Positions 7,306 to 60,402 of a stretch of DNA of 64,000 nucleotides are shown here, piece after piece. Within the stretch, counting starts at the first letter, position 1; every line of letters starts with the position of its first letter. This DNA comes from a virus, in the UHGV virus genome UHGV-0305822; one strand, given 5' to 3'. Position numbers and translations under genes: made by a program. Below the pieces are notes generated by a model. It saw only the letters and a program-made list of their open reading frames with translations. It ran no database searches and was not told where the DNA came from.

Positions 7306-7853
7306 TCATCGTCTCCTTTAATCAACCCTAATTCGATTAACAGTTCAAAATCGATATGACGGAATCTTGTGTCGAAGTCCGATTCCCAATCGATACGGAT
7401 ACCCTGGCATTCTTCTGGCGTTAGCTCAGGAAAAATCACGCTATTAAATTTCTCCCGCTCATCGTAAAACCCATCAATCGGTGAGTTCGGGTTACGTGTT
7501 GCGAAGATAGTAATGCCGGGGAAGGACAATGCCAACACAGTGATAGATTCTGCGCTGGGTTCGCTTAAAGAGCGGCGTAGAAACGCAATTTTGTGACGTG
7601 GGAAATCCAATACCCGTTCTTCAAACCCTGGGTTACGTTTTTCAATTTCCGCAACCGACAGGTCAGTAAGTTCGGTGCAGTACATTGGGATGATTACAGT
7701 CACGCCGTGACGAATCAGTAAGCGTTTTACGTCATCGGTGAAATCTTCACCGTTAATCACCACATAACAACCGAATAGCTTACTGTTTTCCAGAAACTTA
7801 TCCAGAAGTCGAATTCTACGCTTCGTAATATTGTTGATCAGAATTGGTTTCAT
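7281..7853 (-). CDS. hypothetical protein (190 aa)
   Basis: Long ORF overlapping both neighbours (7281-7305 and 7816-7853) on same strand. Confidence 0.5.
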   Translation of the reverse strand: MKPILINNITKRRIRLLDKFLENSKLFGCYVVINGEDFTDDVKRLLIRHGVTVIIPMYCTELTDLSVAEIEKRNPGFEERVLDFPRHKIAFLRRSLSEPSAESITVLALSFPGITIFATRNPNSPIDGFYDEREKFNSVIFPELTPEECQGIRIDWESDFDTRFRHIDFELLIELGLIKGDDECLLLVKA

Positions 7854-9138
7854 CTTTGGCTTCTCTTAATAATTTTTCCTTTTGGGCACGTTCACGAACA
7901 CAGCGTGGGCAATAACACATGCTCGTGTCGTGGAACGCTTTTGCTGACGTCGTACCCATCTTCTGTTTCCAGTATTCCGCCACCATCAGTTTCGCTGTCG
8001 TCCAGCCACACTGACGTCGTTCAGCGTGATACGCCTTACGGTCTTCTAACGTCCCTTCCCCGTTCTCGTAAGAAGCCGCTGCGCAGCTACCACAAGCGTG
8101 TTTCATCGGACAACCTAAACAGGTCTCTGGGTAGTTGGTATATTGCGTTTGAATCTCTTCTAACAATTTACCGTTGTCCAGACTGACGAATTCCCGACCT
8201 ACCAACTCAAACACCGCAGAACGCGACGTTACCGTTGACATAAAGCGGTTACAGCCAAAGATCTTACGGTCAAATCCTAAGCACGTCATGTGCGTTAACG
8301 TCCCACAAAACGGACGTAAACGTTCTGGGTTCAGCCGTACGGTGTCATTATACAGTAACTGGTCACGCCAGTTCGGTTCCCAAATCGTATCGAAATCCAA
8401 CCCTTCTGGAATGATGTGCGATAAGATATTACGTGGGTTGGTGTGTAATCCTTTCTCAACCCAGTAATCTATCACATCCATCATCTGTAACGCGATTGAC
8501 GTCGCCATGCTACGTGGCATAACGTCTTCGAAAGTTACGTTTCCAGAAATTGTCCCACCGCCAGTAATGTCAATTAATGACTTCATCCCCGCAGCATAGA
8601 ACGGCAGCGTTTCTAACGTAAAGGTTGCTTTTACGCCGAGCTCTGCAATGCCAACCTCTTTTAAGTAGTTATAGCCACGTACTGCGGCTTCGTAAGAACC
8701 CTGGCGTGTTGTTGTGAAGATACGATAACGGTCATGGGATTCAGGTAAGCCATCAATCGAAACCCCAACCGAAAGTTTATCTTTCCAACGTTCTACAATC
8801 TCACGGTTCAACGGACGATCTAACAGCGTTCCGTTCGTGGAGATACTAAACATAAACGGTCGGTTGTGTTCTTTACACAACTGCTCAGCGGTTTCAAACG
8901 CAGCCAGCAGCAGTTTAGGCTGCATGAACGGCTCACCACCGATAATGTCGATAATAACTTCAACATTCGGTTCGTTTTTATCACGTTCAAAACAGGCGTG
9001 TAAGAAATCAACAATATCCGCCGCTTTGTTGTTACGCGGGTACTTACGTTCGTAACAATATTCGCAGTCCAAGTTACACGAAAGGTTGGTTACGATCTGA
9101 TACGTTAACTGCTTAGGGAATTCATTTACTTGACTCAT
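7816..9138 (-). CDS. radical SAM enzyme with SPASM-type C-terminal Cys cluster (peptide/protein-modifying maturase candidate)
   Basis: N-terminal CNLDCEYC (Cx3Cx2C radical SAM 4Fe-4S motif); GGEPF SAM-binding-like motif; C-terminal FCG...C...C and CLGCPMKHACGSC clusters typical of SPASM auxiliary Fe-S domains. Confidence 0.8.
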   Translation of the reverse strand: MSQVNEFPKQLTYQIVTNLSCNLDCEYCYERKYPRNNKAADIVDFLHACFERDKNEPNVEVIIDIIGGEPFMQPKLLLAAFETAEQLCKEHNRPFMFSISTNGTLLDRPLNREIVERWKDKLSVGVSIDGLPESHDRYRIFTTTRQGSYEAAVRGYNYLKEVGIAELGVKATFTLETLPFYAAGMKSLIDITGGGTISGNVTFEDVMPRSMATSIALQMMDVIDYWVEKGLHTNPRNILSHIIPEGLDFDTIWEPNWRDQLLYNDTVRLNPERLRPFCGTLTHMTCLGFDRKIFGCNRFMSTVTSRSAVFELVGREFVSLDNGKLLEEIQTQYTNYPETCLGCPMKHACGSCAAASYENGEGTLEDRKAYHAERRQCGWTTAKLMVAEYWKQKMGTTSAKAFHDTSMCYCPRCVRERAQKEKLLREAKDETNSDQQYYEA

Positions 9139-10045
9139 TTGCCGCCCCTCTATTACGCCCTGCCATCACTACGCGACGAATATATTCGTACGCCTCTACA
9201 CCGATAGAGAAGGCCAGTTGGTTACATCCCGATTCCAGAACGTTAGGTGCATTCTGGAGTTGGTGCTCACCACCGTCTGCATTAATCCAAAGACTTTCGC
9301 TGCAAACGTTACACCCTTCTTCAAACACTTTACTTACTGTAAAGCCGCATTCACGACCATTTACTACATTCAGTCGTTCAATGTTATCCTGAACCTGATA
9401 GTAGCCGTAAATAAAGTTCATGACGTGGTCAGGCGATAAAGGTTTTGGCATTTTCGCATCTAAGAGTAACGTCATTGCACGGAAACCGTAATGGTAAATC
9501 GCGCTGTGCAGCTGAATAATATCTTCGTGCCAGCGTTTGTCCCCTAAACGGTCCCGTGTCAGGACACCCCAAGTCTGGACATTATCCAGCTCGTAGATCG
9601 TTTCCAGTGCTTCGTAACAGCCTTCGTCAATAAAGCGCATAAACGGGCGCTCAGACGACTTAAACCCATCGATGCTAACGTAGACATTGTCAAACTGTTT
9701 TAGCAACGGGAGATGCGATTTACGCATCTTTAAGCCATTGGTATACAACTGGTGTTTGAGTTCTGGACGAATCACTTTTAATTCGTCAACAAACGCCTCA
9801 ATTTTACGGGTTGCCAGTAATGGCTCACCACCCGTCCACTGAATTTCGGTAATGGTTGGATTAGCTTCCAGCGCTTCCAAAATTCGCTCACGTTGAAACT
9901 CTCGCGGAGAATCTTCACGATTCATGTAATAGGCTCCACCGCAGAAGCTACAATCCAGGTTGCACTTGGACGTAGCGACTACGGACAATACGGTGGGTTT
10001 ATCGTATAAACGATTCGATAACCTTGGTTCTGCATTGGTTGTCAT
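9122..10045 (-). CDS. radical SAM enzyme (second, shorter; partial auxiliary Cys cluster)
   Basis: CNLDCSFCGG (Cx3Cx2C); GGEPLL motif; C-terminal ECGF...CNVCSE Cys cluster; overlaps downstream rSAM start by 17 nt. Confidence 0.75.
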   Translation of the reverse strand: MTTNAEPRLSNRLYDKPTVLSVVATSKCNLDCSFCGGAYYMNREDSPREFQRERILEALEANPTITEIQWTGGEPLLATRKIEAFVDELKVIRPELKHQLYTNGLKMRKSHLPLLKQFDNVYVSIDGFKSSERPFMRFIDEGCYEALETIYELDNVQTWGVLTRDRLGDKRWHEDIIQLHSAIYHYGFRAMTLLLDAKMPKPLSPDHVMNFIYGYYQVQDNIERLNVVNGRECGFTVSKVFEEGCNVCSESLWINADGGEHQLQNAPNVLESGCNQLAFSIGVEAYEYIRRVVMAGRNRGAANESSK

Positions 10046-38220: not shown

Positions 38221-38225
38221 CGTTT

Positions 38226-38268
38226 GGGAGAACCTTCGGGTTCTCCCTTTCTTTATTTTTTTCTTTTT
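38226..38268 (+). terminator. rho-independent terminator
   Basis: Stem GGGAGAACC / GGTTCTCCC, loop TTCG, then long T-rich tract. Confidence 0.65.
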
Positions 38269-38298
38269 ACACCACACTCCGTCTTTATGGAGGTGGGT

Positions 38299-40803
38299 AT
38301 GCTAAAAGTTGAACGCATTATACTCAAAGGTTTTACGGGGATGGGGTTACATGAAATTGAAACCTTCGATTTCACTATCCAGTCTCCAACAACAATTATC
38401 CTGGGTGGGAACGGCTGCGGGAAAACCAGTCTACTGTCTGTGTTCTTACCCTTAGCACCGGCTAAAACCGAATTTAGGGACGGCGGTTCTTACACAAACT
38501 ACTGTTTAGTTGGCGATCAACGCTATCGATTCAAAGTTGCCCGTAAAGGCAACTCTTTGGTTTGTGATATTGAGAACTTGACCACGGGGACAAAGATCGT
38601 CGAGCAAGGTAATGCGAAAGTCTACAACTCCCGTGTTGAAGAAATCACGGGTATTACGAAAGAGATTAAAGAACTATTAAATGGTGAGGTGTTGTTAACC
38701 GATGCGGGAACCGAATTACGCCGCAAATGGTTTTACCGTTTAAGTACCTCTGACCTCACTTACGCGTTAGGGTTTTATCAGCGTTTACGTAAAAACCTTA
38801 CTGCCTTAAATGGGGGTATTGAAATCACCAGCCGCAAGATCGCCGAATTACGGACGCGTGTTATTGAGAACGAGGAAGAACGGCAGCAGTTAGCGACGAG
38901 ATTAAAAGGTTTGGAATCGGATTTACGTGAACTGAACCGAGAAATCGAACAGTTGCCAGGATTAAATCGTGCCGTCACCATCGAAACAATCCAAGCGTTA
39001 TTAAACAGCTTGGGCCCAACCATCGACGCAATATTACAACATCGTGGTGGCCTGCCTACTGATGAACAGATACTGACCGCGCGACAAAACGAAGCTACGG
39101 CCCGCGAAGCTGTCGTGTCTACTGAAACAGAGGTATCGATGTTGAATAAAGACTTGTCGTTATTAATGGATGAGTCGACACGACAAGACTACCTGATGCG
39201 GAATCACGAAGGTCTCAAGAATACGCTGGCACGTTTACGTGAGTTACTTACCAAATGGGACACCGAACATCTCTTTCCGGGTCTATTTAACGACAACATC
39301 AATTTAGACCAACTTCGTGCGGCTACAGATGCGCGTGTTTGGGGGCAACGGTTGGGAACAACACTAGACGCAATTCATTCAACCGAAAAACTTAACGTTT
39401 TGGAAGAACGACTTCTGGTGATGGATCAAAAAACCGCAGGGATGCGGGATAGACTCCAGCGAGTGGAGAACGTTTTACAGAATTTAAATCACGAACGTAA
39501 TCACTACTTAGAAACAGCGGAAGTGGATTGCCCGCAGTGTCGGTTTAAGTTTCGGCCCGGTGTTACGCGTTCTTTACCTGAACTTGAGTCTTCGATTCGC
39601 GGACAACAACAGCAGCGCACGGAACTGCAAACACAGTTAGAGGCCCTATTACGCGATCGTGTTGAATTAGAATCTGATGTAACTTATATGCGGCAGGTTC
39701 GTGAGATTGTACTGACGTATTCAAAGGACCCGGTATTGAGCATGTTCTTTAAGCGTTTGCAAGAACGTAACGTTTTCACAGAATCACGCGAACAGTTCGG
39801 GAGTCTATGCGCAGCGTTTGACAGTGAGTTGTACTCTGCTATTGAGTACCATGAAACCCGACAACGGTTAGTGAAGGCGGAAAAAGAATGGCAGGATGCC
39901 GTAGCGGCCGTTGGTAACGTCGATGGTGCTTTACAACAGAAAATCGCCTTCCAACAGTCACGATTAGGTAAAGCCACAGAAATGCTCTCAATGCGTCGTA
40001 GAGAGCACGAACTGGCTAACACGACACTTACCTATCTGGTGAATGTTAAACGTGCTGTAGATGATTTCAGTGCGTTATTCGAACGGTTAGAGAGTGATGT
40101 TAAGGTTACGTTGACAAATACGGTCGTCGAGGAACTCTTACGTGCACGAGAAGGGAAGCTGGATGCTTTTACAACCGCACGCGAACGTTATCGTCAGATG
40201 GAAAATGAATTGAATCAGCTCAACAGTTTGGAACGCGAACTTGCTGACTTACAAGCCCAGCAGTTCAATAACAAACTGATGATTCAAGCCTTCTCGCCAG
40301 AAAAGGGTGTACTTAGAAAGTATTTTTACAACGCTATCGTTAGAATCACAGAGTTAATGACGCGTTATATCGAACAAGTCTGGACGTACCCCATGCGCGT
40401 TATGCCTTGTGACCTCACTGACGGCGATTTGGATTATACTTTTCCTGTCCAGCTAAAAACGCATCCTGAGCCTGTTCCTGACGTGCGTAAAGGGTCTAAG
40501 GCGCAGCGTGCGATATTTAATCTGATGTTCAGGCTGACCGCGTACAAAGCGCTGAAGTTGCATCAGTTTCCGTTGCTTTTGGATGAGCCTTCGGAAGGCA
40601 TGGATGAGGAGCACCGTAACAACCTGGTCGGCTTTATTAAAACGTTAGCAAACTCGGGAGAATTTTCTCAACTGTTGGTAGTCTCCCACGAAGCCGAGGT
40701 TCATTCTAAACTTAATGAAGCATCGTACTGTGTCATCGAACCGGAAGGGGTGACATTGCCTGCGGTGTATAACGAAGGAGTAAAAATTGTTTATGCAAAC
40801 TGA
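38299..40803 (+). CDS. Rad50/SbcC-like ABC-type ATPase with zinc hook
   Basis: Walker A GGNGCGKTS near N-terminus; long coiled-coil-like middle with central CPQC (zinc-hook-like); C-terminal LLLDEPSEGMD Walker B/D-loop; ATG at 38299 after GGAGGTGGG (ORF track start 38224). Confidence 0.7.
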   Translation: MLKVERIILKGFTGMGLHEIETFDFTIQSPTTIILGGNGCGKTSLLSVFLPLAPAKTEFRDGGSYTNYCLVGDQRYRFKVARKGNSLVCDIENLTTGTKIVEQGNAKVYNSRVEEITGITKEIKELLNGEVLLTDAGTELRRKWFYRLSTSDLTYALGFYQRLRKNLTALNGGIEITSRKIAELRTRVIENEEERQQLATRLKGLESDLRELNREIEQLPGLNRAVTIETIQALLNSLGPTIDAILQHRGGLPTDEQILTARQNEATAREAVVSTETEVSMLNKDLSLLMDESTRQDYLMRNHEGLKNTLARLRELLTKWDTEHLFPGLFNDNINLDQLRAATDARVWGQRLGTTLDAIHSTEKLNVLEERLLVMDQKTAGMRDRLQRVENVLQNLNHERNHYLETAEVDCPQCRFKFRPGVTRSLPELESSIRGQQQQRTELQTQLEALLRDRVELESDVTYMRQVREIVLTYSKDPVLSMFFKRLQERNVFTESREQFGSLCAAFDSELYSAIEYHETRQRLVKAEKEWQDAVAAVGNVDGALQQKIAFQQSRLGKATEMLSMRRREHELANTTLTYLVNVKRAVDDFSALFERLESDVKVTLTNTVVEELLRAREGKLDAFTTARERYRQMENELNQLNSLERELADLQAQQFNNKLMIQAFSPEKGVLRKYFYNAIVRITELMTRYIEQVWTYPMRVMPCDLTDGDLDYTFPVQLKTHPEPVPDVRKGSKAQRAIFNLMFRLTAYKALKLHQFPLLLDEPSEGMDEEHRNNLVGFIKTLANSGEFSQLLVVSHEAEVHSKLNEASYCVIEPEGVTLPAVYNEGVKIVYAN

Positions 40804-40982: not shown

Positions 40983-41081
40983 ATGGTTGTAGGGGTTCTG
41001 TTAACACTTGGCTCGTTGTGGTTAATTGGTAAAGGTTTAAACTGGCTGATTAAACGTCACCGTTGGGCGTTCGAAGATTAA
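40983..41081 (+). CDS. small hydrophobic peptide (32 aa)
   Basis: MVVGVLLTLGSLWLIGKGLNWLIKRHRWAFED, AGGAGAGGGA RBS; not in ORF track (short). Confidence 0.3.
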   Translation: MVVGVLLTLGSLWLIGKGLNWLIKRHRWAFED

Positions 41082-41138
41082 CCACCCAAATAATCCAGAA
41101 GATACCCTCCGGTGTGAGGGTATTGACAGGAGCAGAAA

Positions 41139-41267
41139 ATGACCACGATAAACGCTACGAATGTAGCGATATCCGCACTATACGACGCGGAACTTTCATG
41201 GGGTGGATTAATGATCACCACAGCCATATTAGCCGCTGCGGCTTTCGTCATCGCGCGTTGGTTTTAA
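41139..41267 (+). CDS. small hydrophobic peptide (42 aa)
   Basis: MTTINATNVAISALYDAELSWGGLMITTAILAAAAFVIARWF, AGGAG RBS 6 nt upstream; not in ORF track (short). Confidence 0.3.
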   Translation: MTTINATNVAISALYDAELSWGGLMITTAILAAAAFVIARWF

Positions 41268-41298
41268 TTTTACTTTTTTGCGTCTCTAAGGTTTGCAA

Positions 41299-41742
41299 AT
41301 GGAAATTTATTTGTTGAACGCATCTTCTAAAGTCGGTGAACGACAAGCTGCCGATTTACTCAAACTACACTACCGTTACTTGGACCACCAGGCTACATTA
41401 CTGAAAATCAAAACGTCGGTGCCGAAGTTAAATGCGCGACAGCTGATCGAAGGTAACTGCATAGTTCTGGTGTATCAGGATGATGTCGCGGTAGGATACT
41501 GTAGTTATCGGAATCGTAACGGTTCACTTAAGATACGTTCGGTATACGTGCTCCCAGACTATCGTCAACGGGGTGTAATGAAAGAGATTTTCAAAGCAAT
41601 TGCAGCTGATGAAGTTTTCGGCGAGATTGTTACTGGCATGTATGCGAAATGTAAAGAAGCAAAAGAGTATTTCATCCGACGCGGCTATCAAGCGGTTTAC
41701 TCACACGATCGTGAGTGGGTCGATTTTAGCAAAACATTCTAA
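41299..41742 (+). CDS. GNAT-family N-acetyltransferase candidate
   Basis: VYVLPDYRQRGVMKEIF resembles the GNAT acetyl-CoA-binding motif A region; ATG at 41299 (ORF track start 41293 is TTG). Confidence 0.4.
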   Translation: MEIYLLNASSKVGERQAADLLKLHYRYLDHQATLLKIKTSVPKLNARQLIEGNCIVLVYQDDVAVGYCSYRNRNGSLKIRSVYVLPDYRQRGVMKEIFKAIAADEVFGEIVTGMYAKCKEAKEYFIRRGYQAVYSHDREWVDFSKTF

Positions 41743-41808
41743 AAACAATAAAGCTCTCTTGGCGTACCTCACTATGAGTGTGAGAAATTTACGTCAGGAG
41801 AGCTAATT

Positions 41809-42054
41809 ATGTTAAAATCGTACGGAGTGGGTGGTTTGGATACGAGTATTTGTTGGAAAGAATACGAACGTGCGAAAGCGTTCTTACAGCATCCCAATGT
41901 GGGGACGATAGGTAAGGTCTGTTTCGGCAAACCTTCACTGACGGCTTGTATCCAAGGGGCTTTAGGGACGTTGCCACCCGAATCACATTTCGAGCCTGAG
42001 GAGAATATGAATGTTCACAGAGAACCCATCAATTTACGGCATACCGTTGAATGA
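41809..42054 (+). CDS. hypothetical protein (81 aa)
   Basis: ORF with GGAGAG RBS. Confidence 0.4.
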   Translation: MLKSYGVGGLDTSICWKEYERAKAFLQHPNVGTIGKVCFGKPSLTACIQGALGTLPPESHFEPEENMNVHREPINLRHTVE

Positions 42055-42379
42055 AATTGATATTCTGCAAATTTGTTATCAATGTGGTGACTTCGGTAAG
42101 ACGCAGGTAACGCCGTTAGTTAAGCTTTTAGGTTACTTGCCTGAAATCGAGTTGCCTTTTGTTAAACCCAGTTTAGTTCGTCGCGCATCGTGTCGTGAAG
42201 CTTATTTGCTCTGGAAACACAATATTTCAGTAGAGAATGTCTGGGACCGTATGAACGATCATCAGTTCCGTGAGCAGGTCGTCCACACGCTTAACTTGTC
42301 ACTGACTATGCAGCGCCTGGGCTTACAACACGAAGGTTTAGAAGCGGCGGTCAAGCAATGGATTACGAAAAATCGATAA
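42011..42379 (+). CDS. hypothetical protein (122 aa)
   Basis: ORF overlapping upstream gene end; GAGGAGAA RBS. Confidence 0.45.
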   Translation: MFTENPSIYGIPLNEIDILQICYQCGDFGKTQVTPLVKLLGYLPEIELPFVKPSLVRRASCREAYLLWKHNISVENVWDRMNDHQFREQVVHTLNLSLTMQRLGLQHEGLEAAVKQWITKNR

Positions 42380-42466
42380 TGGGTAAAACATATATCGCTA
42401 TACTTGTCGAGCTATCAATCGGCGGTACACGTTTTAATACTACACATCAACTCCGGGCGTTTCGTT

Positions 42467-42964
42467 ATGTTAACGGTACGTAAAGAATCTGAAATTGGTA
42501 ACGATCTTTTTAATGCGCCCGAAGACTATAAAGTCGTTACCATTAACTGCGTAGGAGCGATGGGTCGCGGTATTGCACTCGCGTGTCGTGAACGCTACCC
42601 CAACCTTTATCAGGATTATCGTAAGCGGTGTCGTGAAGACGAAATTAAGATTGGAAGCGTTTACGTTTACTCTGACGAAAAGTGTATCTTGCTCCCCACG
42701 AAAACACATTGGCGTTTAAAATCCCAGGTTTCTTATGTTACTGCGGGCATTACCGCATTAGCAGACTGTGTTGAGGATCTGGATACCAGCGTTGCTATCC
42801 CTCCGTTGGGAATGGCAAATGGGTGGTTAGATTCCTGGGAAAGACAAGAAATCTTTTTGTGGCTTTACAAAAAACTTGAACCGAGGAGGCAGCGCTACAC
42901 GTTATACTTACCTGATAAGCTGTACCAAGAAGCAGAGTCATTAATTCCAAACTCTTTTAAATAG
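42467..42964 (+). CDS. TARG1/DarG-like macrodomain protein (ADP-ribose hydrolase candidate)
   Basis: NCVGAMGRGIALACRERYP parallels TARG1 DCRMGAGIAVLFKKKFG; later AIPPLGMANGWLDSWERQ parallels SMPRIGCGLDRLQWENV (comparison from memory); ATG at 42467 (ORF track start 42404 is TTG). Confidence 0.6.
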   Translation: MLTVRKESEIGNDLFNAPEDYKVVTINCVGAMGRGIALACRERYPNLYQDYRKRCREDEIKIGSVYVYSDEKCILLPTKTHWRLKSQVSYVTAGITALADCVEDLDTSVAIPPLGMANGWLDSWERQEIFLWLYKKLEPRRQRYTLYLPDKLYQEAESLIPNSFK

Positions 42965-43064
42965 ATATTATCATTAGGGCACACAACAAAGGAGTATTAG
43001 CTGTCCGCGCCGTCATTTCGTCTTACGGAATACGGAAATGTATAAATCCAACTGGAGAAACAAA

Positions 43065-43763
43065 ATGTTTCGTATCTTCTTTCTTTTACTGGTAACACTT
43101 TTCGCGTTTAACGCACAGGCGTCAACGTCAACGCCACATTCTAAGCATCAGCGTGAGTTTGCACAAATCCAACATCGGTTCGAAAAAGTCAGCCCGTTAA
43201 TTGTGGAAATCTCACGAAAGCAGGGCGTTGATCCCAAGCTGATGATTACGCTGATTTATCGTGAATCGCGTTTTGATCCCAAGGCTTACAACAAAAGCTC
43301 ACGAGCGCACAGCCTGGTACAAATGCTTCCAAGTACCAAGCGTAATCTGCTAAAGCTTTATGGAAAAGAATTAGGTCTTAGTCAGAACGCCGATTTGTAT
43401 AATCCGCGTAACGCTGTTTTGCTGGCTACCGCGTATGTTAAACATCTTGAGAAGGGGTTAACCAAACGACTCAAACGCAAGCCCACCATGGCTGAAATTG
43501 CGTTAGCTTACCACTGGGGTGAAAGTGGCGCTCACACGCGAATCAAAAGCAAATCTCGAGCAGCACAACGAGAAATGGCAGGCTTTATGAAAGACGCCGC
43601 GTTCTATAGCGCGAAAATCGATGTGCCTGTTGTTGTGGGCTCGGCCCCACGTCAGCTTGCGTTTGCGAAGAAAACACCACGTCAGATTCAACTGGCGGAA
43701 GTTAGTAGAATTTGGGATACGATAAACATGAGTTTTCCAATCAATAGAGGAGTTACCCTTTGA
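43065..43763 (+). CDS. secreted lytic transglycosylase (SLT domain) candidate
   Basis: Signal peptide MFRIFFLLLVTLFAFNAQA; YRESRFDPKAYNKSSRAHSLVQMLPST resembles the SLT catalytic ES ... G(L)MQ(L/I)(M)P motif; ATG at 43065 after GGAGAA. Confidence 0.55.
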   Translation: MFRIFFLLLVTLFAFNAQASTSTPHSKHQREFAQIQHRFEKVSPLIVEISRKQGVDPKLMITLIYRESRFDPKAYNKSSRAHSLVQMLPSTKRNLLKLYGKELGLSQNADLYNPRNAVLLATAYVKHLEKGLTKRLKRKPTMAEIALAYHWGESGAHTRIKSKSRAAQREMAGFMKDAAFYSAKIDVPVVVGSAPRQLAFAKKTPRQIQLAEVSRIWDTINMSFPINRGVTL

Positions 43764-44269
43764 GCATCGTAGTAACCGATTGGTATAAAGGCATTACAAA
43801 AGCCGCACAATTGACCGCGAAAGACGTTTACAGTATCGTCCGAAGCAGTATCGAAGACGAGATTAAGTCGGATGAAGAATTCGCAGAGAAACACGAATTT
43901 TACGATGCTTTACCCACAGCATTCGGTGACGACGAAGAAGAAGGTTTAGAGTTTGACTGGAACGTCAACCTTGCCTTGTTGTGGATTTGTGGTTTACGAC
44001 CAACGGTAAAAGAAACCGAAGAAGGGAAAGTCTTGCTTTGGAATTTTACCGGGCAGTATAACCGTAATTTAGTCTTTAAACAGGCGTATATGGACGCTAC
44101 TGTAGAACTTCAAAATCTACTGCTTGGCGAAAACACATACTGCCAACGCAGTTTCTTAACGATTCTGGAAAAACTTGTGTCGACACACAAAGTCTGGCGT
44201 AAAGAAGACGCCCCGGAACATATGTTCATTTTAGAGTACGCTGTCATTCCAAATCAGCCGTTCTTCTAA
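43760..44269 (+). CDS. hypothetical protein (169 aa)
   Basis: TTG start overlapping upstream stop, GAGGAG RBS. Confidence 0.45.
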   Translation: MSIVVTDWYKGITKAAQLTAKDVYSIVRSSIEDEIKSDEEFAEKHEFYDALPTAFGDDEEEGLEFDWNVNLALLWICGLRPTVKETEEGKVLLWNFTGQYNRNLVFKQAYMDATVELQNLLLGENTYCQRSFLTILEKLVSTHKVWRKEDAPEHMFILEYAVIPNQPFF

Positions 44270-44275
44270 CCTCTA

Positions 44276-44313
44276 CCCCTTACCCTATACGGAGTAAGGG
44301 GTACTTTTATTTT
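44276..44313 (+). terminator. terminator candidate
   Basis: CCCCTTA ... TAAGGGG stem with long loop followed by TACTTTTATTTT. Confidence 0.4.
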
Positions 44314-44335
44314 CATTCCCTAAAGGAGCAGAGTT

Positions 44336-44815
44336 ATGATAAAATTCATTTGGCGTTATCCAACGCGTTTTTGGTTTGTGGTACTTGAACTGTGTATGGT
44401 TCTTGTAGCGGTTACTTTTGTCGAAGCACCCGCCTCGCAGTTGGCCATTTTCTGCCTTTTCGTGACTGTCCCTGTATGGGTGATTGCGAAGGTTATTAAG
44501 TTCGTCATGGTGTGTTGGGCGAATTATACCTGTCCGTATAAGCCTAAACAAATCATGAAATGGCTGATGTATATTGAAGAACGTTTACCGGCGCAACATA
44601 AATTACTGGGCTGGTCGTCAATGTTGGATATTGCGCTAGAAACCAATGCAAAGTTCCCCGGTGCGAAAAACCCGTATTTGTTGATGGCGGTAATTGTTGC
44701 ACAACAAAAACTGGCAGGTGACCGTTGGTTGCCAGAAGAAGCGAAAGCGTATATCCGTAAACATCCAAAAGCTTTTTACTCGGTAGGACAATGGCGTAAC
44801 TTGCCTTTATTTTAA
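44336..44815 (+). CDS. membrane protein (159 aa)
   Basis: Two hydrophobic segments (FWFVVLELCMVLVAVTFV; LAIFCLFVTVPVWVIAKVI); RBS AAAGGAG. Confidence 0.55.
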   Translation: MIKFIWRYPTRFWFVVLELCMVLVAVTFVEAPASQLAIFCLFVTVPVWVIAKVIKFVMVCWANYTCPYKPKQIMKWLMYIEERLPAQHKLLGWSSMLDIALETNAKFPGAKNPYLLMAVIVAQQKLAGDRWLPEEAKAYIRKHPKAFYSVGQWRNLPLF

Positions 44816-44868
44816 CTTTTTACATAACCCTTAGTTGATTTGAACAAACCTAAAAGAGGACTATTAAA

Positions 44869-45804
44869 ATGACTTTTCCATCTGAAGTAATTTACGAACT
44901 GGCTAACACTCTACGTCGTCACTATAGCAGCAAAATGATGCAAACCCACGTGGGTGCGACTGCTGACTTTTTGCGCGGCCATTTCCTGGGCAATAACCCA
45001 CCGTCGATTACACAGGAAACGGTTTTCTCTATCGATCGTGCCTCCTTAATTCTTCCAATCGACCACGCCATTGCGGTTCAAGAAGGGAATACGTTCAACT
45101 TCTCTATGGGAATGCGACATTCGTCTAATGTCGTTAACTCAAGCATGGGAAATGACCCGTCTTTCGCACACAACACGCACTCTGTAGAACATGGTAACTG
45201 GTTCGTTGCTGTAGAACAAGGCGTGAATCAGTATGACGTTGTTGCAGCTCGCGATGAGTCTTTCTTTGAGCTGGGACAGATTTCTCGCCGTCGTGAAATT
45301 GCGCTTGACCTACGTCAAGGTAATATCGGATTAAGTGGGACCAGTGTTTATTTCATCCTGAGCAGTTGGGCACATGTAAGTTACGTGCTGAAAAATGCCA
45401 GCCCGACGTTCCACGCAACGATGGTAGAATTTCGTAGCCTTGATGTAGGAAATCATGACGAAGAAGAAACGGTACCTAGCACAGAAGTCGCCGTCTGTGA
45501 AGACTACGATGATCTGAAATCTGTACTCGTTAAGCGTGATGTTTTCGAATCGTTAAACCTGGATTTCCCCGGTGACGAAAATGAAATATCCGTAGCTGAT
45601 CTGGTAGAAGCGTTGTGTCAGAAAGACCAAGCTAATGAGATCAGTGACGAAGAAGCAGAACTCTTCCAAGTTCAACAACTCGTCAGCAAGGTTATCGGTG
45701 GACAGGGAATCGTTGACACTCTTATGGCTCTACCGCCGAAGAAACGTACTCAGAAGTACATTCGTGAACTGGTTCTTGAAAACCTTGGTCAAACCAAAAA
45801 GTAA
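44869..45804 (+). CDS. hypothetical protein (311 aa)
   Basis: Long ORF, AAAGAGGA RBS. Confidence 0.55.
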   Translation: MTFPSEVIYELANTLRRHYSSKMMQTHVGATADFLRGHFLGNNPPSITQETVFSIDRASLILPIDHAIAVQEGNTFNFSMGMRHSSNVVNSSMGNDPSFAHNTHSVEHGNWFVAVEQGVNQYDVVAARDESFFELGQISRRREIALDLRQGNIGLSGTSVYFILSSWAHVSYVLKNASPTFHATMVEFRSLDVGNHDEEETVPSTEVAVCEDYDDLKSVLVKRDVFESLNLDFPGDENEISVADLVEALCQKDQANEISDEEAELFQVQQLVSKVIGGQGIVDTLMALPPKKRTQKYIRELVLENLGQTKK

Positions 45805-49537: not shown

Positions 49538-50272
49538 ATGACCTACCCAAAAATTGTCACCCCGTACACCCCGACGCTGGTTATTGGCGCTGATGCTGAA
49601 ACCAAATCATTACGTCCCGATGCTTATCTGTTAAGTGCGGGTTTAGTGGCTTTTGACGTCCCTACATTGAAAATGGTAGGTTCCTCATACATCAGGATCG
49701 ATCCTAACGATCCTAAAGCAAAAGCCATTTTCCACGAAGACCCACAAACCGTTGGTTGGTGGGAAGGTAAAGGCGAACCCGAATACGCACCGTCTCGTGA
49801 AGCCTATGCGGAAGCGTGGGGTGGGACGACAGCATTGCCAGACGCGCTCTGGGCGATGCAAAAATGGCTCGGGGAGATCACCGCAAAACATGAGTTTGTG
49901 ATTACCATGCGTGGCCCTGACTTCGATGCGCCGATTTTCATGAACGCATTCGCACAATGTGATATTCCGCCAGGGAAGTTCCGTAAATTCAGTGCACTGG
50001 ATAGCGATCGTACCGCAGAACGTTTAGCCTTTGCATTTGGGTTCGAGCCTGACCTAACCGTAGAGCAAATTTACTGGACACGCGGTAAGCCCGCTTTTGA
50101 GCACCACGCAATGTGGGATGCAGCAAAAGAAGCCTACACCACGGCACGTATTTACCACCTCGCTTTGGTCACTCGCCAATACGGGTTTGAACGCGCCAAA
50201 GCCTGTCACGAAGAACTGAAAACGGGCGAGTATGTTGCGCCGCAGATTCGTGATCAATTAACCAGGGATTAA
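49538..50272 (+). CDS. DEDDh-type 3'-5' exonuclease (DnaQ-like) candidate
   Basis: VIGADAETKSL (DxE Exo I motif) and HHAMWDA (H-x4-D Exo III motif). Confidence 0.55.
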   Translation: MTYPKIVTPYTPTLVIGADAETKSLRPDAYLLSAGLVAFDVPTLKMVGSSYIRIDPNDPKAKAIFHEDPQTVGWWEGKGEPEYAPSREAYAEAWGGTTALPDALWAMQKWLGEITAKHEFVITMRGPDFDAPIFMNAFAQCDIPPGKFRKFSALDSDRTAERLAFAFGFEPDLTVEQIYWTRGKPAFEHHAMWDAAKEAYTTARIYHLALVTRQYGFERAKACHEELKTGEYVAPQIRDQLTRD

Positions 50273-50274
50273 GA

Positions 50275-51795
50275 ATGAAGAACGTTGATGTTGCAGTAAT
50301 TTACACGGATGGTAGCCATTTGACCTCCCCGCTCGGTACAGGAGCGGGGATTCATGGATACTTATTTAATCGTGAAGCGATTGAGGATGGTCGGGTTTAC
50401 CGCCATCCCTCTATTCCCGAGGGGATTACGACGTCAGGATACCGCCAGATAAACAAGGATGAAAAACTTCCACCTTTACCAGAAACCGTGGAGTTTATTG
50501 ACGGCGTTGTGCCTGTACCAAAAATGTCACACTCCGACGTTGCAGAACTCGTGGCTTTCCTGACCGTCTTCGAACACGCACCTTTCGTTGCCAAAAACTA
50601 TGTTATCTATATCGATGCCTCTTACGTTGTCAACACGTATAACGATTGGATTGATGGTTGGGCTGCACGCGGCTGGCGTCGTGCAGACGGTACGCCTATT
50701 GCGAACTTGGAATTAATCCAACGGATGTGGGAAGTTAAACAGCGGTTAAAGAAAGAAGGGAAAGGTATCCGTGTCCTTAAAATTAAAGGGCATTCAGGAC
50801 GCTATGGAAACGAGCGTGCCGACGAGTTAGCACGGAAAGGTTCAAGTATTTCGGCTCGAGGTGATGGGTTAGACTATACACCGTATTGGTCAAAAGACGA
50901 GATGCCTGAGGAAGAACAGCAACCAGAAGTTGTTGGTGAAGGTGTCAATTTGTCTGCTTTTCCCGATATCTGTGTTACGAAGTTCTGTTACCCGATGGTG
51001 AACGAACCGCATCCCACTGTTACAGTTAACGGTAATAAACTTTATTACATGTTCGGTGGGAACCATGCAAAACAGAAGGACGATATCGTCTTCGTTGGTA
51101 AGTACATTCCAGATGCACAATTCTGCGTAATGTTTACCAAAGAACCATGGAACAACGTATACGAGTTGGTAAATACCCACTCTGCGAAAGCGTGGGAAGG
51201 GGTGCCCCGTTTACGTCAGTTTGATCCCATCGCCGTTGTTTTTAACTTATTCGTAAAACGTAAGAAGTTCGCAGAAGCCGCAGGTAACGGTATTCCTGTC
51301 GATCGGATGCATTTTAGCGAAGACAAAAACCTGTGGATGTTTGAAGATCTTTCGATTACACGAATTCTTCGTCCCGCGTTATTGTCTTATCGCTGCATTA
51401 CGATTCGTGATGAGCTTGCAGGTTGGTTACGCGATGCCATGGAGGGGAAAAACTCAGTCGTAATGAACGACATTACTGACCTGCTTTACGATGAGAAAGG
51501 TAAGCCGAAGAAAGACTTTTATCGTAACGTAGATAAAGGTTTTGACGTAACCATCCATATCCCTGGTAGCAAAAACAAGGTTAAAACCATCCTTACTCGA
51601 GGTATCGACATACCGACGCGTACGGAAATCAACCGTATGAAAGAACCAGAAGGACGATTCTACGTGGCGGTAAGGCGTCCAGAACGGCAGTATATCGAAT
51701 ATGCGTTGGTTTATATTGGGGAAAAATATCATGGGTTGTGGTGTGGCTATTATTCAAACAAACGAATATTGACGGATAAGGAGCTTGAATGCTGA
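50275..51795 (+). CDS. RNase HI domain fused to ~310-aa C-terminal domain of unknown function
   Basis: VAVIYTDGS; DVAELVAFL; IDASYVVNTYNDWIDGWAARGWRRADGTPIAN; KGHSGRYGNERADELARKG all parallel E. coli RNase HI motifs (TDGS; NN.MEL.A; TDSQYV..GI..W...W..RGW.TA; KGH.G...NE..DELA). Confidence 0.75.
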   Translation: MKNVDVAVIYTDGSHLTSPLGTGAGIHGYLFNREAIEDGRVYRHPSIPEGITTSGYRQINKDEKLPPLPETVEFIDGVVPVPKMSHSDVAELVAFLTVFEHAPFVAKNYVIYIDASYVVNTYNDWIDGWAARGWRRADGTPIANLELIQRMWEVKQRLKKEGKGIRVLKIKGHSGRYGNERADELARKGSSISARGDGLDYTPYWSKDEMPEEEQQPEVVGEGVNLSAFPDICVTKFCYPMVNEPHPTVTVNGNKLYYMFGGNHAKQKDDIVFVGKYIPDAQFCVMFTKEPWNNVYELVNTHSAKAWEGVPRLRQFDPIAVVFNLFVKRKKFAEAAGNGIPVDRMHFSEDKNLWMFEDLSITRILRPALLSYRCITIRDELAGWLRDAMEGKNSVVMNDITDLLYDEKGKPKKDFYRNVDKGFDVTIHIPGSKNKVKTILTRGIDIPTRTEINRMKEPEGRFYVAVRRPERQYIEYALVYIGEKYHGLWCGYYSNKRILTDKELEC

Positions 51796-59459: not shown

Positions 59460-59759
59460 ATGCGTTATCAAACGGAGATTGTGGAACGCTTAAGTGAAGG
59501 ATTGGCAAGTGTTAATTTAGAAACAGCGGCCGAATTTCGTGAAGCCTTCACTCACCCGTTTCCCGATCTGGAATCCTTTTGTTTAAAGGTCGCTGAGTAT
59601 TACTCGAATCTATTAGTACGTTACGGGTATGCGCCAGTACGTTCCGAACTTCCTGAAAACACGGAAGCTATCAGCTACTGGATTGACCTGCTTGAAGCAG
59701 AAACGTTATCCAATTTACGTAAGGCGGTAGACAATGAAACTCGAACCAGCGCGGCGTAA
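59460..59759 (+). CDS. hypothetical protein (99 aa)
   Basis: ATG after TAAGGAG. Confidence 0.45.
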   Translation: MRYQTEIVERLSEGLASVNLETAAEFREAFTHPFPDLESFCLKVAEYYSNLLVRYGYAPVRSELPENTEAISYWIDLLEAETLSNLRKAVDNETRTSAA

Positions 59760-60402
59760 AAAGGCGGAAGCCTACGCCTTACAAATCTTAAAGTTGGTAG
59801 ACCCTTCTGGCATTAATGCCGAAGCCGCGAAGAAAGCCTTCGCACGAATGACCGACGAACAGTTTAACCGACTTCGTAACGGTTTGCCTATTTACAACCC
59901 GGTGGGAAGTAAAGTCGAAATTGACCACCTGCGCAATATCGAGGTGTGCAAAATTCTCGGGGTAAACCTGGAGCAACGACTCTGGTTAACAGAACCAAAA
60001 ACGGGTGTTTATCACCGTACTCGTTACCCTCACTTAGTCTTACGCTTGCCTGTCCGTCGTCAGACACAGATGCAAGAAAAGAAAATGGCGGTTGCGAAAA
60101 ACGACAAAGTTCGCGATAAGCTCTCCGGTCAAGTCGTCGGACCTTCCAAAGCATCCGGGGTGTCCTTCCCAGAGGCATACATCATGTACTCCGATGGTCA
60201 CGACTGGACACTGAAAGAGTTCTTGTGGGCGCGTGGTGGTAACGACGCACTACAACGTGCTTTCTATCAATCGCTGCGCCAAACCGGTAAAGGGCGTATT
60301 GATTTGCCTGGAGCGGAGCGAACAAGTTCTAAAGCAACGCGTACGTGGTCGGCGTACCTAAAAGCGATGCATATCGGTAACAACATAGGCCATCCGTCAT
60401 GA
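59734..60402 (+). CDS. hypothetical protein (222 aa)
   Basis: ORF overlapping upstream gene end. Confidence 0.45.
   Translation: MKLEPARRKKAEAYALQILKLVDPSGINAEAAKKAFARMTDEQFNRLRNGLPIYNPVGSKVEIDHLRNIEVCKILGVNLEQRLWLTEPKTGVYHRTRYPHLVLRLPVRRQTQMQEKKMAVAKNDKVRDKLSGQVVGPSKASGVSFPEAYIMYSDGHDWTLKEFLWARGGNDALQRAFYQSLRQTGKGRIDLPGAERTSSKATRTWSAYLKAMHIGNNIGHPS

What the first reader, a model, noticed from the sequence alone, without database searches (positions are those of the whole stretch)
42467..42964. TARG1/DarG-like macrodomain: candidate ADP-ribosylation eraser and anti-defence factor
Seen: NCVGAMGRGIALACRERYP and GMANGWLDSWERQ parallel the TARG1/DarG-type macrodomain substrate-binding and catalytic segments (comparison from memory). 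Established: DarG-type macrodomains remove ADP-ribose from DNA thymidines installed by DarT, and DarTG acts as an anti-phage system. Inference: this phage gene could reverse host ADP-ribosylation of phage DNA or proteins.
Basis: partly seen in the sequence, partly recalled or inferred. Interest (0 to 1): 0.72.

Follow-up and report, generated by a model that had tools for sequence, protein, structure and literature searches.

The report
Jumbo-phage anti-DarT macrodomain (AdfM orthologue)
This gene encodes a small stand-alone enzyme closely modelled on the bacterial DarG antitoxin. It most likely strips ADP-ribose off phage DNA to defeat the host's DarTG2 defence. This is a real function but an already published one (AdfM of nucleus-forming jumbo phages), so the finding is correct and not new.

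Summary
Window 42467-42964 (+) is a 165-aa ORF containing both quoted motifs, and it is a macrodomain. It is specifically the DarG type. The only hits in NCBIfam and PADLOC are DarG models (2e-36, 2e-37). The best solved structures by sequence and by fold are the Mtb and Taq DarG macrodomains (profile 157 and 142 bits; TM 0.85), far ahead of TARG1 (34 bits). The catalytic Lys (K79 = Taq K80) and Asn (N27 = N22), T78, H81, W82 and both Gly loops are present. TARG1's Asp is absent, as in DarG.

The window is collinear with the chimalliviruses SPN3US and Asesino. The protein is 62% identical to Asesino gp217 and about 35-39% identical to PhiKZ gp104. Both are published AdfM (anti-DarT factor macro) proteins, which are imported into the phage nucleus. 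PhiKZ AdfM removes DarT2 ADP-ribose from DNA (Morgan et al., Cell Rep 2026).

One small new detail: the protein belongs to a distinct jumbo-phage sub-lineage with Trp in ADP-ribose loop 2 (G-M-A-N-G-W-L), whose catalysis has not been tested.

The parts
42467..42964 (+). adfM-like gene: stand-alone DarG-type macrodomain, 165 aa plus stop
   Evidence: ORF and translation. Pfam Macro above the gathering cutoff. The DarG models are the only hits in NCBIfam and PADLOC. AF2 model has pLDDT 93.6 and pTM 0.90, and its best fold matches are 5m3e, 5m3i and 5m31, the DarG macrodomains. It is 61.6% identical to Asesino gp217 AdfM.
42545..42547 (+). codon AAC = N27, equivalent to Taq DarG N22 and PhiKZ AdfM N23 (catalytic/substrate-positioning Asn)
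   Evidence: Invariant in alignment A1 and in 154 of 154 DarG-like representatives. N22A in Taq DarG and N23A in PhiKZ AdfM reduce activity.
42554..42571 (+). ADP-ribose-binding loop 1, G30-A-M-G33-R34-G35 (Taq G25..K29-G30)
   Evidence: G30, G33 and G35 are invariant. R34 is a conservative replacement of Taq K29, whose K29E mutant is impaired.
42698..42712 (+). catalytic segment T78-K79-T80-H81-W82 (Taq T79-K80-K81-H82-W83). K79 is the catalytic lysine (codon AAA, 42701-42703)
   Evidence: K79 is conserved in 152 of 154, T78 in 153 of 154 and W82 in 150 of 154. Taq K80A is inactive, and W83 is proposed to stack on the modified thymine.
42800..42829 (+). ADP-ribose-binding loop 2, P112-P-L-G115-M-A117-N118-G119-W120-L121 (Taq P114..G117-A-G119-N120-G121-G122-L123). 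W120 (TGG, 42824-42826) marks the sub-lineage
   Evidence: Alignments A1, A2 and A3. A117 is shared with active PhiKZ AdfM. W120 occurs in only 14 of 154 representatives. The 12 short W-type proteins form a clade with 94% NJ bootstrap support.

Best explanation
The gene encodes an orthologue of AdfM (anti-DarT factor macro), a stand-alone copy of the N-terminal macrodomain of the bacterial antitoxin DarG carried by a nucleus-forming jumbo phage (Chimalliviridae, SPN3US/Asesino-like).

Proposed mechanism: when the host's DarTG2 system is triggered, the DarT2 toxin ADP-ribosylates thymidines in single-stranded phage DNA, which blocks replication and packaging. The phage protein binds the ADP-ribose in its two Gly-rich loops. 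It cleaves the thymidine-ribose bond using K79, with N27 positioning the substrate and W82 near the base. This restores unmodified DNA.

The protein lacks DarG's C-terminal DarT-binding domain, so it should act purely as an enzyme rather than by sequestering the toxin. By analogy with the Asesino, PhiKZ and PhiPA3 proteins, it is probably imported into the phage nucleus, where the DNA is.

Shown here: the fold, the DarG-type active site, orthology to published AdfMs and the chimallivirus context. Inferred: catalysis on DNA, nuclear import and the DarTG2 target in this phage's host.
For: Sequence:
- DarG is the sole family hit in NCBIfam (2e-36, covering profile positions 7-155 of 338) and in PADLOC (2e-37, 7-152 of 329).
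- The top PDB hits are Mtb and Taq DarG.

Structure:
- AF2 model with pLDDT 93.6.
- Foldseek's top three hits are DarG macrodomains: E about 3e-13, TM 0.85, rmsd 2.0 A.

Active site:
- N27, T78, K79, H81, W82, G115, N118 and G119 match Taq N22, T79, K80, H82, W83, G117, N120 and G121.

Orthology:
- 61.6% identity over 96% coverage to Asesino gp217.
- 65% identity to the SPN3US macro protein, in the same gene order SMC-GNAT-macro-SLT.
- 35-39% identity to PhiKZ gp104.

Context:
- The window is collinear with SPN3US at 49-83% amino-acid identity, including a split RNAP beta fragment.
- Seoulvirus and Erskinevirus are both in Chimalliviridae.
- Asesino forms a chimallin nucleus.

Published function of the family:
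- PhiKZ AdfM removes DarT2 ADP-ribose from an oligonucleotide, rescues DarT2 toxicity and is required on DarTG2 hosts.
- The Asesino, PhiKZ and PhiPA3 AdfMs localize to the phage nucleus (PMC13309987).
- The Taq DarG macrodomain alone suffices as an antitoxin (PMC5179494).
- T4 Tk.4, another phage macrodomain, is needed against DarTG2.
Against: - No enzyme of the W-type sub-lineage has been assayed. For Asesino gp217 only localization was reported.
- Loop 2 differs from DarG at two positions. Taq G119 becomes A117, and G119E impairs Taq DarG, although active PhiKZ AdfM also has Ala there. Taq G122 becomes W120. The ADP-ribose contact Q34 is Ala here (A39).
- The NCBIfam score (125.9 bits) is below the DarG equivalog cutoff (250) because half of the model is unmatched.
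- Chimallin and PicA are not in this window, so nuclear import rests on family membership.
- The host (probably Salmonella) and whether it carries DarTG2 are unknown.
- PhiKZ AdfM does not group with this protein in a distance tree, so transferring function from PhiKZ goes through the shared DarG-type active site rather than through close orthology.
Confidence: 0.8

Rival explanations
1. It removes ADP-ribose from something other than DarT2-modified DNA. Candidates are host- or phage-ADP-ribosylated proteins or RNA, for example RNA-targeting ART defence toxins, or modifications made by the phage's own ADP-ribosyltransferases. In that case it would be an eraser for a different conflict.
For: - Macrodomains as a superfamily act on proteins, RNA and small molecules.
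- TARG1, the next-closest fold, is a protein de-ADP-ribosylase.
- The W-type loop 2 and A39 differ from assayed enzymes.
- GenBank annotators have called some orthologues 'protein-ADP-ribosylation protein'.
Against: - All DarG-specific features, including N27 and W82, are retained, while TARG1's Asp is absent.
- DarG models outscore every other macro family by about 100 bits.
- No ADP-ribosyltransferase domain was found in the eight flanking proteins scanned.
- The paper states that this phage macrodomain aligns most closely with DarG2 macrodomains, which act on DNA.
Confidence: 0.1
2. It is a housekeeping 'Appr-1-p processing' or O-acetyl-ADP-ribose phosphatase/deacetylase acting on small NAD-derived metabolites, as the legacy GenBank and PHROG names ('phosphatase', 'Appr-1-p processing protein') suggest.
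For: - PHROG 335 is labelled 'phosphatase'.
- Many orthologues are annotated 'putative Appr-1-p processing protein'.
- There are weak PDB hits to ADP-ribose 1''-phosphate phosphatases (E 0.02-0.05).
Against: - These names derive from the old name of the Pfam Macro domain, not from assays.
- The phosphatase hits are marginal (17-30 bits) and cover only the N-terminal third, against 94-157 bits for DarG.
- The characterized family member acts on DNA.
Confidence: 0.04
3. The W-type protein is catalytically impaired and works mainly as a binder or sponge, for example of ADP-ribose-derived immune signals or of ADP-ribosylated DNA, rather than as a hydrolase.
For: - A bulky Trp replaces a Gly in the loop that closes over the ADP-ribose diphosphate. 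The Taq loop 117-122 moves up to 7.7 A on binding.
- G119 is replaced by Ala.
Against: - The catalytic K79, N27 and T78 are strictly conserved across the W-type clade, which would not be expected for a pure binder.
- The position equivalent to W120 is Arg in active TARG1 and is R, K, E or Q in other DarG-like proteins, so bulky residues are tolerated there.
- Ala at position 117 is present in active PhiKZ AdfM.
Confidence: 0.05

Closest known systems
AdfM of Erwinia phage Asesino (gp217, ANZ48230.1 / YP_009290835.1), Chimalliviridae, Erskinevirus
   Same: 61.6% identity over 96% of the length. Same size (166 vs 165 aa). Same W-type loop 2 (GMAHGWL vs GMANGWL). Same gene neighbourhood, with SMC upstream and an SLT endolysin immediately downstream. 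Shown to localize to the phage nucleus.
   Different: A different phage: the window has no DNA-level match in GenBank phages. The Asesino protein's catalysis and anti-DarTG2 role were not directly tested.
AdfM of Pseudomonas phage PhiKZ (gp104, AAL83005.1) and PhiPA3 gp108
   Same: A stand-alone DarG-type macrodomain of about 162 aa in a chimallivirus. It has the same catalytic Asn and Lys (N23/K78 vs N27/K79) and Ala at the Taq G119 position. It is the biochemically and genetically characterized reference for the family.
   Different: Only 35-39% identical. It has the G-type loop 2 (GCANGGL), a 10-residue insertion before beta-5 and a different genomic neighbourhood. It does not cluster with the W-type clade (2% bootstrap).
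Bacterial DarG antitoxin macrodomain (Thermus aquaticus 5M31/5M3E; M. tuberculosis 5M3I), DarTG2 systems
   Same: Best sequence and structure match: 39-42% identity, TM 0.85, rmsd 2.0 A. All residues shown by mutagenesis to matter most (N22, K80) are conserved, along with the putative base-stacking Trp.
   Different: No C-terminal DarT-binding domain (165 aa vs about 340). No adjacent darT gene. Encoded by a phage, so it is an 'orphan antitoxin' used as counter-defence. Loop 2 has G119A and G122W, and Q34 is Ala.
Human TARG1 / OARD1 (4J5Q/R/S)
   Same: Same macrodomain subclass. The catalytic Lys is in an equivalent position (K84 = K79).
   Different: Only 19-20% identity and 34 bits with the profile. 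TARG1's D125 aligns to Gly. TARG1 lacks the DarG Asn and Trp. TARG1 acts on protein Glu/Asp-ADP-ribose.
Other phage anti-DarT factors: T4 Tk.4 (also named AdfM), NADAR-type AdfN (vs DarTG1), AdfA (RB69), AdfB (ICP1 gp145)
   Same: Same strategic role, neutralizing DarT. Tk.4 is also a DarG-like macrodomain needed against DarTG2. NADAR orphan antitoxins follow the same 'steal the antitoxin enzyme' logic (PMC11825919).
   Different: AdfA and AdfB are small non-enzymatic DarT inhibitors or mimics of DarG's C-terminus. AdfN is a different fold acting on guanine-ADP-ribose. T4 is not a nucleus-forming phage. I did not compare the Tk.4 sequence directly.

Membership tests
Macro domain superfamily (Pfam PF01661) | Profile match above the curated gathering score | tested here: met
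   25.9 bits against a cutoff of 22, E 1e-5, covering profile positions 3-104 of 118.
Macro domain superfamily (Pfam PF01661) | Three-layer alpha/beta/alpha fold with a mixed six-strand sheet | tested here: met
   The AF2 model (pLDDT 93.6, pTM 0.90) has strands at 2-6, 21-27, 66-68, 73-79, 108-111 and 143-148 plus flanking helices. 178 PDB macrodomain matches at E<=1e-3.
DarG-type macrodomain (DNA thymidine ADP-ribosylglycohydrolase) | Closest to DarG rather than to other macro classes, by sequence and by structure | tested here: met
   DarG is the sole hit in NCBIfam and in PADLOC. The profile scores 157 and 142 bits on Mtb and Taq DarG against 34 on TARG1 and 30 or less on the others. Foldseek ranks 1-4 are all DarG or DarTG entries.
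DarG-type macrodomain (DNA thymidine ADP-ribosylglycohydrolase) | Catalytic Lys (Taq K80) and Asn (Taq N22) | tested here: met
   K79 and N27 align to them. They are conserved in 152 of 154 and 154 of 154 family representatives. Mutational importance is given in PMC5179494 and PMC13309987.
DarG-type macrodomain (DNA thymidine ADP-ribosylglycohydrolase) | ADP-ribose-contacting residues and loops (Taq N8, L9, T20, V31, Q34, T79, G117, G119, N120, G121; W83) | tested here: inconclusive
   Most are kept or conservatively changed: D13, L14, T25, I36, T78, G115, N118, G119, W82. Three differ: Q34 to A39, G119 to A117 (also Ala in active PhiKZ AdfM) and the neighbouring G122 to W120. The effect on activity cannot be judged in silico.
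DarG-type macrodomain (DNA thymidine ADP-ribosylglycohydrolase) | Hydrolysis of thymidine-linked ADP-ribose on ssDNA | not testable with these tools
   This requires a biochemical assay. It has been shown for Taq and Mtb DarG and for PhiKZ AdfM, but not for any W-type protein.
Full-length DarG antitoxin of a DarTG2 toxin-antitoxin operon (NCBIfam NF048014 equivalog) | Score above the equivalog cutoff, with a C-terminal DarT-binding domain | tested here: not met
   125.9 bits against a cutoff of 250. Only profile positions 7-155 of 338 are matched, and the protein ends at residue 165. PADLOC matches 7-152 of 329.
Full-length DarG antitoxin of a DarTG2 toxin-antitoxin operon (NCBIfam NF048014 equivalog) | Adjacent darT toxin gene | tested here: not met
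   The upstream 122-aa ORF has no Pfam hit and the downstream gene is an SLT transglycosylase. None of the 8 flanking proteins carries an ART or DarT domain. The same neighbours appear in all related contigs.
AdfM (anti-DarT factor macro) of Chimalliviridae | Stand-alone DarG2-like macrodomain homologous to the published AdfMs | tested here: met
   61.6% identity over 96% coverage to Asesino gp217, syntenic position. E 2e-21 to PhiKZ gp104.
AdfM (anti-DarT factor macro) of Chimalliviridae | Encoded by a chimallivirus (nucleus-forming jumbo phage) | tested here: met
   The window is collinear with SPN3US across about 64 kb. Amino-acid identities: a 1726-aa virion protein 49%, SMC 58%, SLT 51%, split RNAP beta fragment 83%. 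Seoulvirus and Erskinevirus belong to Chimalliviridae. Caveat: chimallin itself lies outside the window (the Asesino ChmA is gp039).
AdfM (anti-DarT factor macro) of Chimalliviridae | PicA-dependent import into the phage nucleus | not testable with these tools
   Shown by GFP fusions for the Asesino, PhiKZ and PhiPA3 AdfMs. Import depends on cognate surface residues, so it cannot be predicted from sequence.
AdfM (anti-DarT factor macro) of Chimalliviridae | Protects the phage from DarTG2 | not testable with these tools
   Shown genetically for PhiKZ and PhiPA3. This needs a knockout phage and a DarTG2 host.
TARG1/OARD1-type protein glycohydrolase | Lys/Asp catalytic dyad (K84, D125) | tested here: not met
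   The Lys is present (K79), but D125 aligns to G119: TARG1 G-C-G-L-D-R-L against G-M-A-N-G-W-L. Overall similarity is weak (34 bits, 19-20% identity).

The most novel reading that the evidence does not exclude
The Trp-loop ('W-type', G-M-[AS]-[NH]-G-W-L) stand-alone macrodomains are found in SPN3US-, Asesino-, CR5- and Vibrio pVa-21-like jumbo phages. They may be a lineage captured from bacterial DarG separately from the PhiKZ-type AdfM. They may also be tuned to a different substrate context, for example a different DarT2 target motif, a different modified base or a different host ART. If so, 'AdfM' in chimalliviruses would be at least two convergent acquisitions with possibly different specificities.
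Probability: 0.2. Interest if true: 0.4.

Novelty: new member of a known kind. Interest (0 to 1): 0.2.

Why it matters
The result assigns a specific, testable counter-defence function to a gene that GenBank relatives label 'hypothetical protein', 'phosphatase' or 'Appr-1-p processing protein'. It extends the published AdfM family to an uncultured, probably Salmonella-infecting jumbo phage.

For phage-therapy and host-range work, an intact AdfM predicts resistance to DarTG2-carrying hosts. Scientifically it adds little beyond Morgan et al. 2026, because the concept, biochemistry and cell biology are already established.

The one new item is a well-supported W-loop sub-lineage whose enzymology has never been assayed. 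Only localization was tested, for Asesino. This protein or its Asesino orthologue would be the natural candidate for that assay.

Tried and rejected
- Megablast of window 41000-45000 against GenBank phages found nothing. The phage has no close sequenced relative there, so identification went through proteins.
- A scripted tblastn synteny map failed because most fetched loci were not available to the Python sandbox. I replaced it with pairwise BLASTP of selected genes.
- The first neighbour-joining bootstrap with Biopython timed out. I redid it with a numpy implementation.
- The TARG1 Lys/Asp dyad was considered as the catalytic model and rejected. The Asp is not conserved, and DarG's Asn/Lys/Trp set is.
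- Classification as a true DarG antitoxin was rejected. There is no C-terminal domain, no darT neighbour and the score is below the equivalog cutoff.
- The longer TTG start at 42404 was rejected because the homologues begin at the ATG.
- The sigma-70 promoter and terminator scan around the gene was uninformative: 0 promoters, and 1 terminator-like site inside the upstream ORF, at chance level.
- The supplement of PMC13309987, which lists chimallivirus AdfMs, is not held. I could not confirm whether SPN3US-type proteins are explicitly listed there.
- The word-indexed homologue search returned only the phage clade. Bacterial DarGs appeared only in the exhaustive search.
- I did not test for DarT2 target-motif depletion in the phage genome. 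I judged it uninformative for a 4-mer with an N.

Full report
**1. Observation**

Window 42467-42964 on the + strand translates without interruption into a 165-aa protein. The complementary strand is full of stops. A mechanical ORF starts earlier at a TTG (42404). All homologues are 161-166 aa and align from the ATG, so 42467 is the start.

**2. Is it a macrodomain, and of which kind?**

- Pfam Macro (PF01661) is matched above its gathering score: 25.9 against 22 bits.
- The more specific libraries give one answer only. NCBIfam's sole hit is antitoxin_DarG (2e-36). PADLOC's sole hit is DarG (2e-37).
- Against solved structures, the single sequence hits the M. tuberculosis DarG macrodomain (5m3i, 7.5e-26), the Thermus aquaticus DarG macrodomain (5m31/5m3e, 9e-21) and a Thermosipho DarTG entry (7omu). 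All other macrodomains score E>0.01.
- A 32-sequence family profile widens the gap: 157 and 142 bits for Mtb and Taq DarG, against 34 bits for human TARG1.
- An AlphaFold2 model built on that alignment is confident (pLDDT 93.6, pTM 0.90). Its best Foldseek matches are the DarG macrodomains (E about 3e-13, TM 0.85, rmsd 2.0 A), then the DarTG entry, then TARG1 (E 1e-7).

The precise assignment is DarG-type.

**3. Active site**

Jankevicius et al. 2016 (PMC5179494) showed that Taq DarG K80A is inactive, N22A is the next most damaging mutation, and K29E and G119E are impaired. They list the ADP-ribose contacts and propose that W83 stacks on the modified thymine.

In the alignment, most of these residues are kept:

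| Taq DarG | Window protein |
|---|---|
| N22 | N27 |
| K29 | R34 |
| T79 | T78 |
| K80 | K79 |
| H82 | H81 |
| W83 | W82 |
| G117 | G115 |
| N120 | N118 |
| G121 | G119 |

Across 154 DarG-like sequences, N27 is conserved in 154, K79 in 152, T78 in 153 and W82 in 150. The protein has the full catalytic set.

TARG1's second catalytic residue, D125, aligns to G119, a Gly as in DarG. TARG1 also has Ser where DarG has the Asn. The 'Lys/Asp dyad' is therefore not the right yardstick.

Three positions differ from Taq DarG:
- Q34 becomes A39.
- G119 becomes A117. PhiKZ AdfM, which is active, also has Ala here.
- G122 becomes W120.

**4. Genomic context**

The region has no nucleotide-level match in GenBank phages. 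At protein level the macro gene's best matches are the SPN3US-like Salmonella phages (65%), Erwinia phages phiEaH2, Asesino and Stratton (about 62%), then other Erwinia and Cronobacter jumbo phages. PhiKZ PHIKZ104 is at 39% over the core.

The window is collinear with SPN3US 132-196 kb. Pairwise identities are:
- a 1726-aa virion protein, 49%;
- the SMC-like ATPase, 58%;
- the SLT transglycosylase, 51%;
- a split multisubunit-RNAP beta fragment, 83%.

The local order SMC, small ORFs, GNAT, 122-aa ORF, macro, SLT is the same in SPN3US, in Asesino, in a 226-kb contig within a Salmonella enterica assembly and in five metagenomic contigs carrying the identical protein. Seoulvirus and Erskinevirus are both genera of Chimalliviridae, and Asesino has been shown to build a chimallin nucleus. 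The window therefore comes from an undescribed chimallivirus, probably infecting Salmonella or a related enterobacterium. Chimallin and PicA themselves are not within the window.

**5. What is known**

Morgan et al., Cell Rep 2026 (PMC13309987) describe exactly this class as AdfM (anti-DarT factor macro).
- PhiKZ gp104 removes DarT2-installed ADP-ribose from a TNTC oligonucleotide, and N23A reduces this activity.
- It fully rescues DarT2 toxicity.
- It is required for PhiKZ and PhiPA3 growth on DarTG2 hosts, where its loss leads to ADP-ribosylated phage DNA, reduced replication and empty capsids.
- It is imported into the phage nucleus via PicA.
- The AdfMs from Asesino (gp217), PhiKZ and PhiPA3 all localize to the nucleus.
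- Homologues occur in about half of chimalliviruses.

Independently, a HIDEN-SEQ preprint found that T4 tk.4, another DarG-like macrodomain, is needed against DarTG2 and gave it the same name. Related strategies are known: NADAR orphan antitoxins against DarTG1 (PMC11825919) and the non-enzymatic AdfA and AdfB.

The window protein is 61.6% identical over 96% of its length to Asesino gp217 and sits in the same genomic position. It is an AdfM orthologue.

**6. Mechanism**

Shown here:
- the DarG-type fold and active site;
- a stand-alone architecture with no C-terminal DarT-binding domain, since only positions 7-155 of the 338-position DarG model are covered;
- no darT neighbour;
- a chimallivirus context.

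Established for relatives:
- the macrodomain alone suffices as an antitoxin;
- PhiKZ AdfM de-ADP-ribosylates DNA and acts from inside the nucleus.

Inferred for this protein:
- K79-dependent hydrolysis of thymidine-linked ADP-ribose on phage ssDNA;
- purely enzymatic neutralization of DarT2, without toxin sequestration;
- nuclear import.

I put this at about 0.8. The rivals are all weaker. They are another ADP-ribosylated substrate, a small-molecule 'Appr-1-p phosphatase' as the legacy annotations say, and a non-catalytic binder. The DarG-specific catalytic residues are strictly conserved, and DarG models outscore all other macro families by roughly 100 bits.

**7. What is slightly new**

An exhaustive search finds 5,097 50%-identity clusters at E<=1e-3 and 1,900 at E<=1e-10. 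Many have the canonical architecture of about 340 aa. Only two clusters reach E<=1e-30.

Trp at position 120 is a minority state, present in 14 of 154 sequences. It is concentrated in short stand-alone proteins. The 12 short W-type proteins form a clade with 94% neighbour-joining bootstrap support, whereas PhiKZ gp104 joins them in only 2% of replicates.

Direct inspection shows:
- W-type loops in Asesino (GMAHGWL), SPN3US and Vibrio phage pVp-JHP1101 (GMSNGWL);
- G-type loops (GC[AS]NGGL) in PhiKZ, Viktualia, Eowyn and the non-chimallivirus Kuravirus Paul.

Other W-type representatives find their best phage matches in Erwinia, Cronobacter and Vibrio jumbo phages at about 40% identity. This suggests a distinct jumbo-phage sub-lineage of AdfM, for which only localization, not catalysis, has been tested.

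The tree is a quick distance tree on about 156 columns and a top-150 sample. The deeper inference, separate capture from bacteria or altered specificity, is therefore only a possibility (about 0.2). Bulky residues at this position are tolerated elsewhere: Arg in TARG1 and R, K, E or Q in other DarG-like proteins.

**8. Verdict**

The finding corresponds to a published family, so it is a new member of a known kind with low interest (0.2). Its practical value is a correct functional annotation for this and many mis-annotated orthologues, plus a pointer to the un-assayed W-loop variant.

Noticed in passing
window 7816-9138 (-) and 9122-10045 (-): Two adjacent, slightly overlapping radical-SAM/4Fe-4S proteins (Pfam PF04055, 3e-15 and 6e-14). 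They are syntenic with two 'radical SAM domain-containing' genes of SPN3US. Their role in a jumbo phage is unexplained; nucleotide or DNA modification, or an anti-defence role, is possible.
   Followed up: partly
window 41293-41742 (+): A GNAT acetyltransferase (PF00583/PF13508, about 8e-8) lies two genes upstream of the macro gene. It is conserved at this position in SPN3US and in every related contig. Its substrate is unknown. The conserved proximity to adfM may or may not be functional.
   Followed up: partly
window 42358/42379-42483 (+): A small ORF (41 aa, or 34 aa from the internal ATG) overlaps the adfM start codon by 17 nt. It is called as a gene on the metagenomic contigs, and SPN3US has an analogous overlapping upstream ORF. 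It could reflect translational coupling or be a spurious call.
   Followed up: no
window 38224-40803 (+): An SMC/Rad50-like ATPase of about 834 aa (best start probably 38299). It is 58% identical to the SPN3US 'SMC domain-containing protein'. The Pfam SMC_N match spans both ends of the protein with a long coiled-coil between them.
   Followed up: partly
window 49538-50272 (+) and 50275-51795 (+): A back-to-back Rv2179c-like 3'-5' exoribonuclease (PF16473, 2.5e-11) and a 506-aa protein with an RNase H domain (PF00075, 9e-21). They are syntenic with the SPN3US 'exoribonuclease' and 'ribonuclease' genes.
   Followed up: partly
window 59734-60402 (+): A 222-aa fragment annotated in SPN3US as an RNA polymerase beta subunit (split multisubunit RNAP, a chimallivirus hallmark). 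At 83% identity it is the most conserved gene I compared, yet it has no Pfam hit.
   Followed up: partly
L006 (GCA_014613015.1 contig AAWEAX010000007.1, 226,167 bp) and P0009 (79-kb contig, S. Braenderup assembly): Near-complete genomes of a 90%-related jumbo phage sit inside Salmonella enterica isolate assemblies. This suggests a carrier state, pseudolysogeny or contamination. It is the best clue to the host of the window's phage.
   Followed up: partly
P0051, P0053, P0058, P0066, P0069 and others: Many DarG-like macrodomains sit at the C-terminal half (residues about 150-300) of proteins of about 335-355 aa, the reverse of the canonical DarG layout. These may be DarT-macro fusions or another architecture. 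I did not examine them.
   Followed up: no
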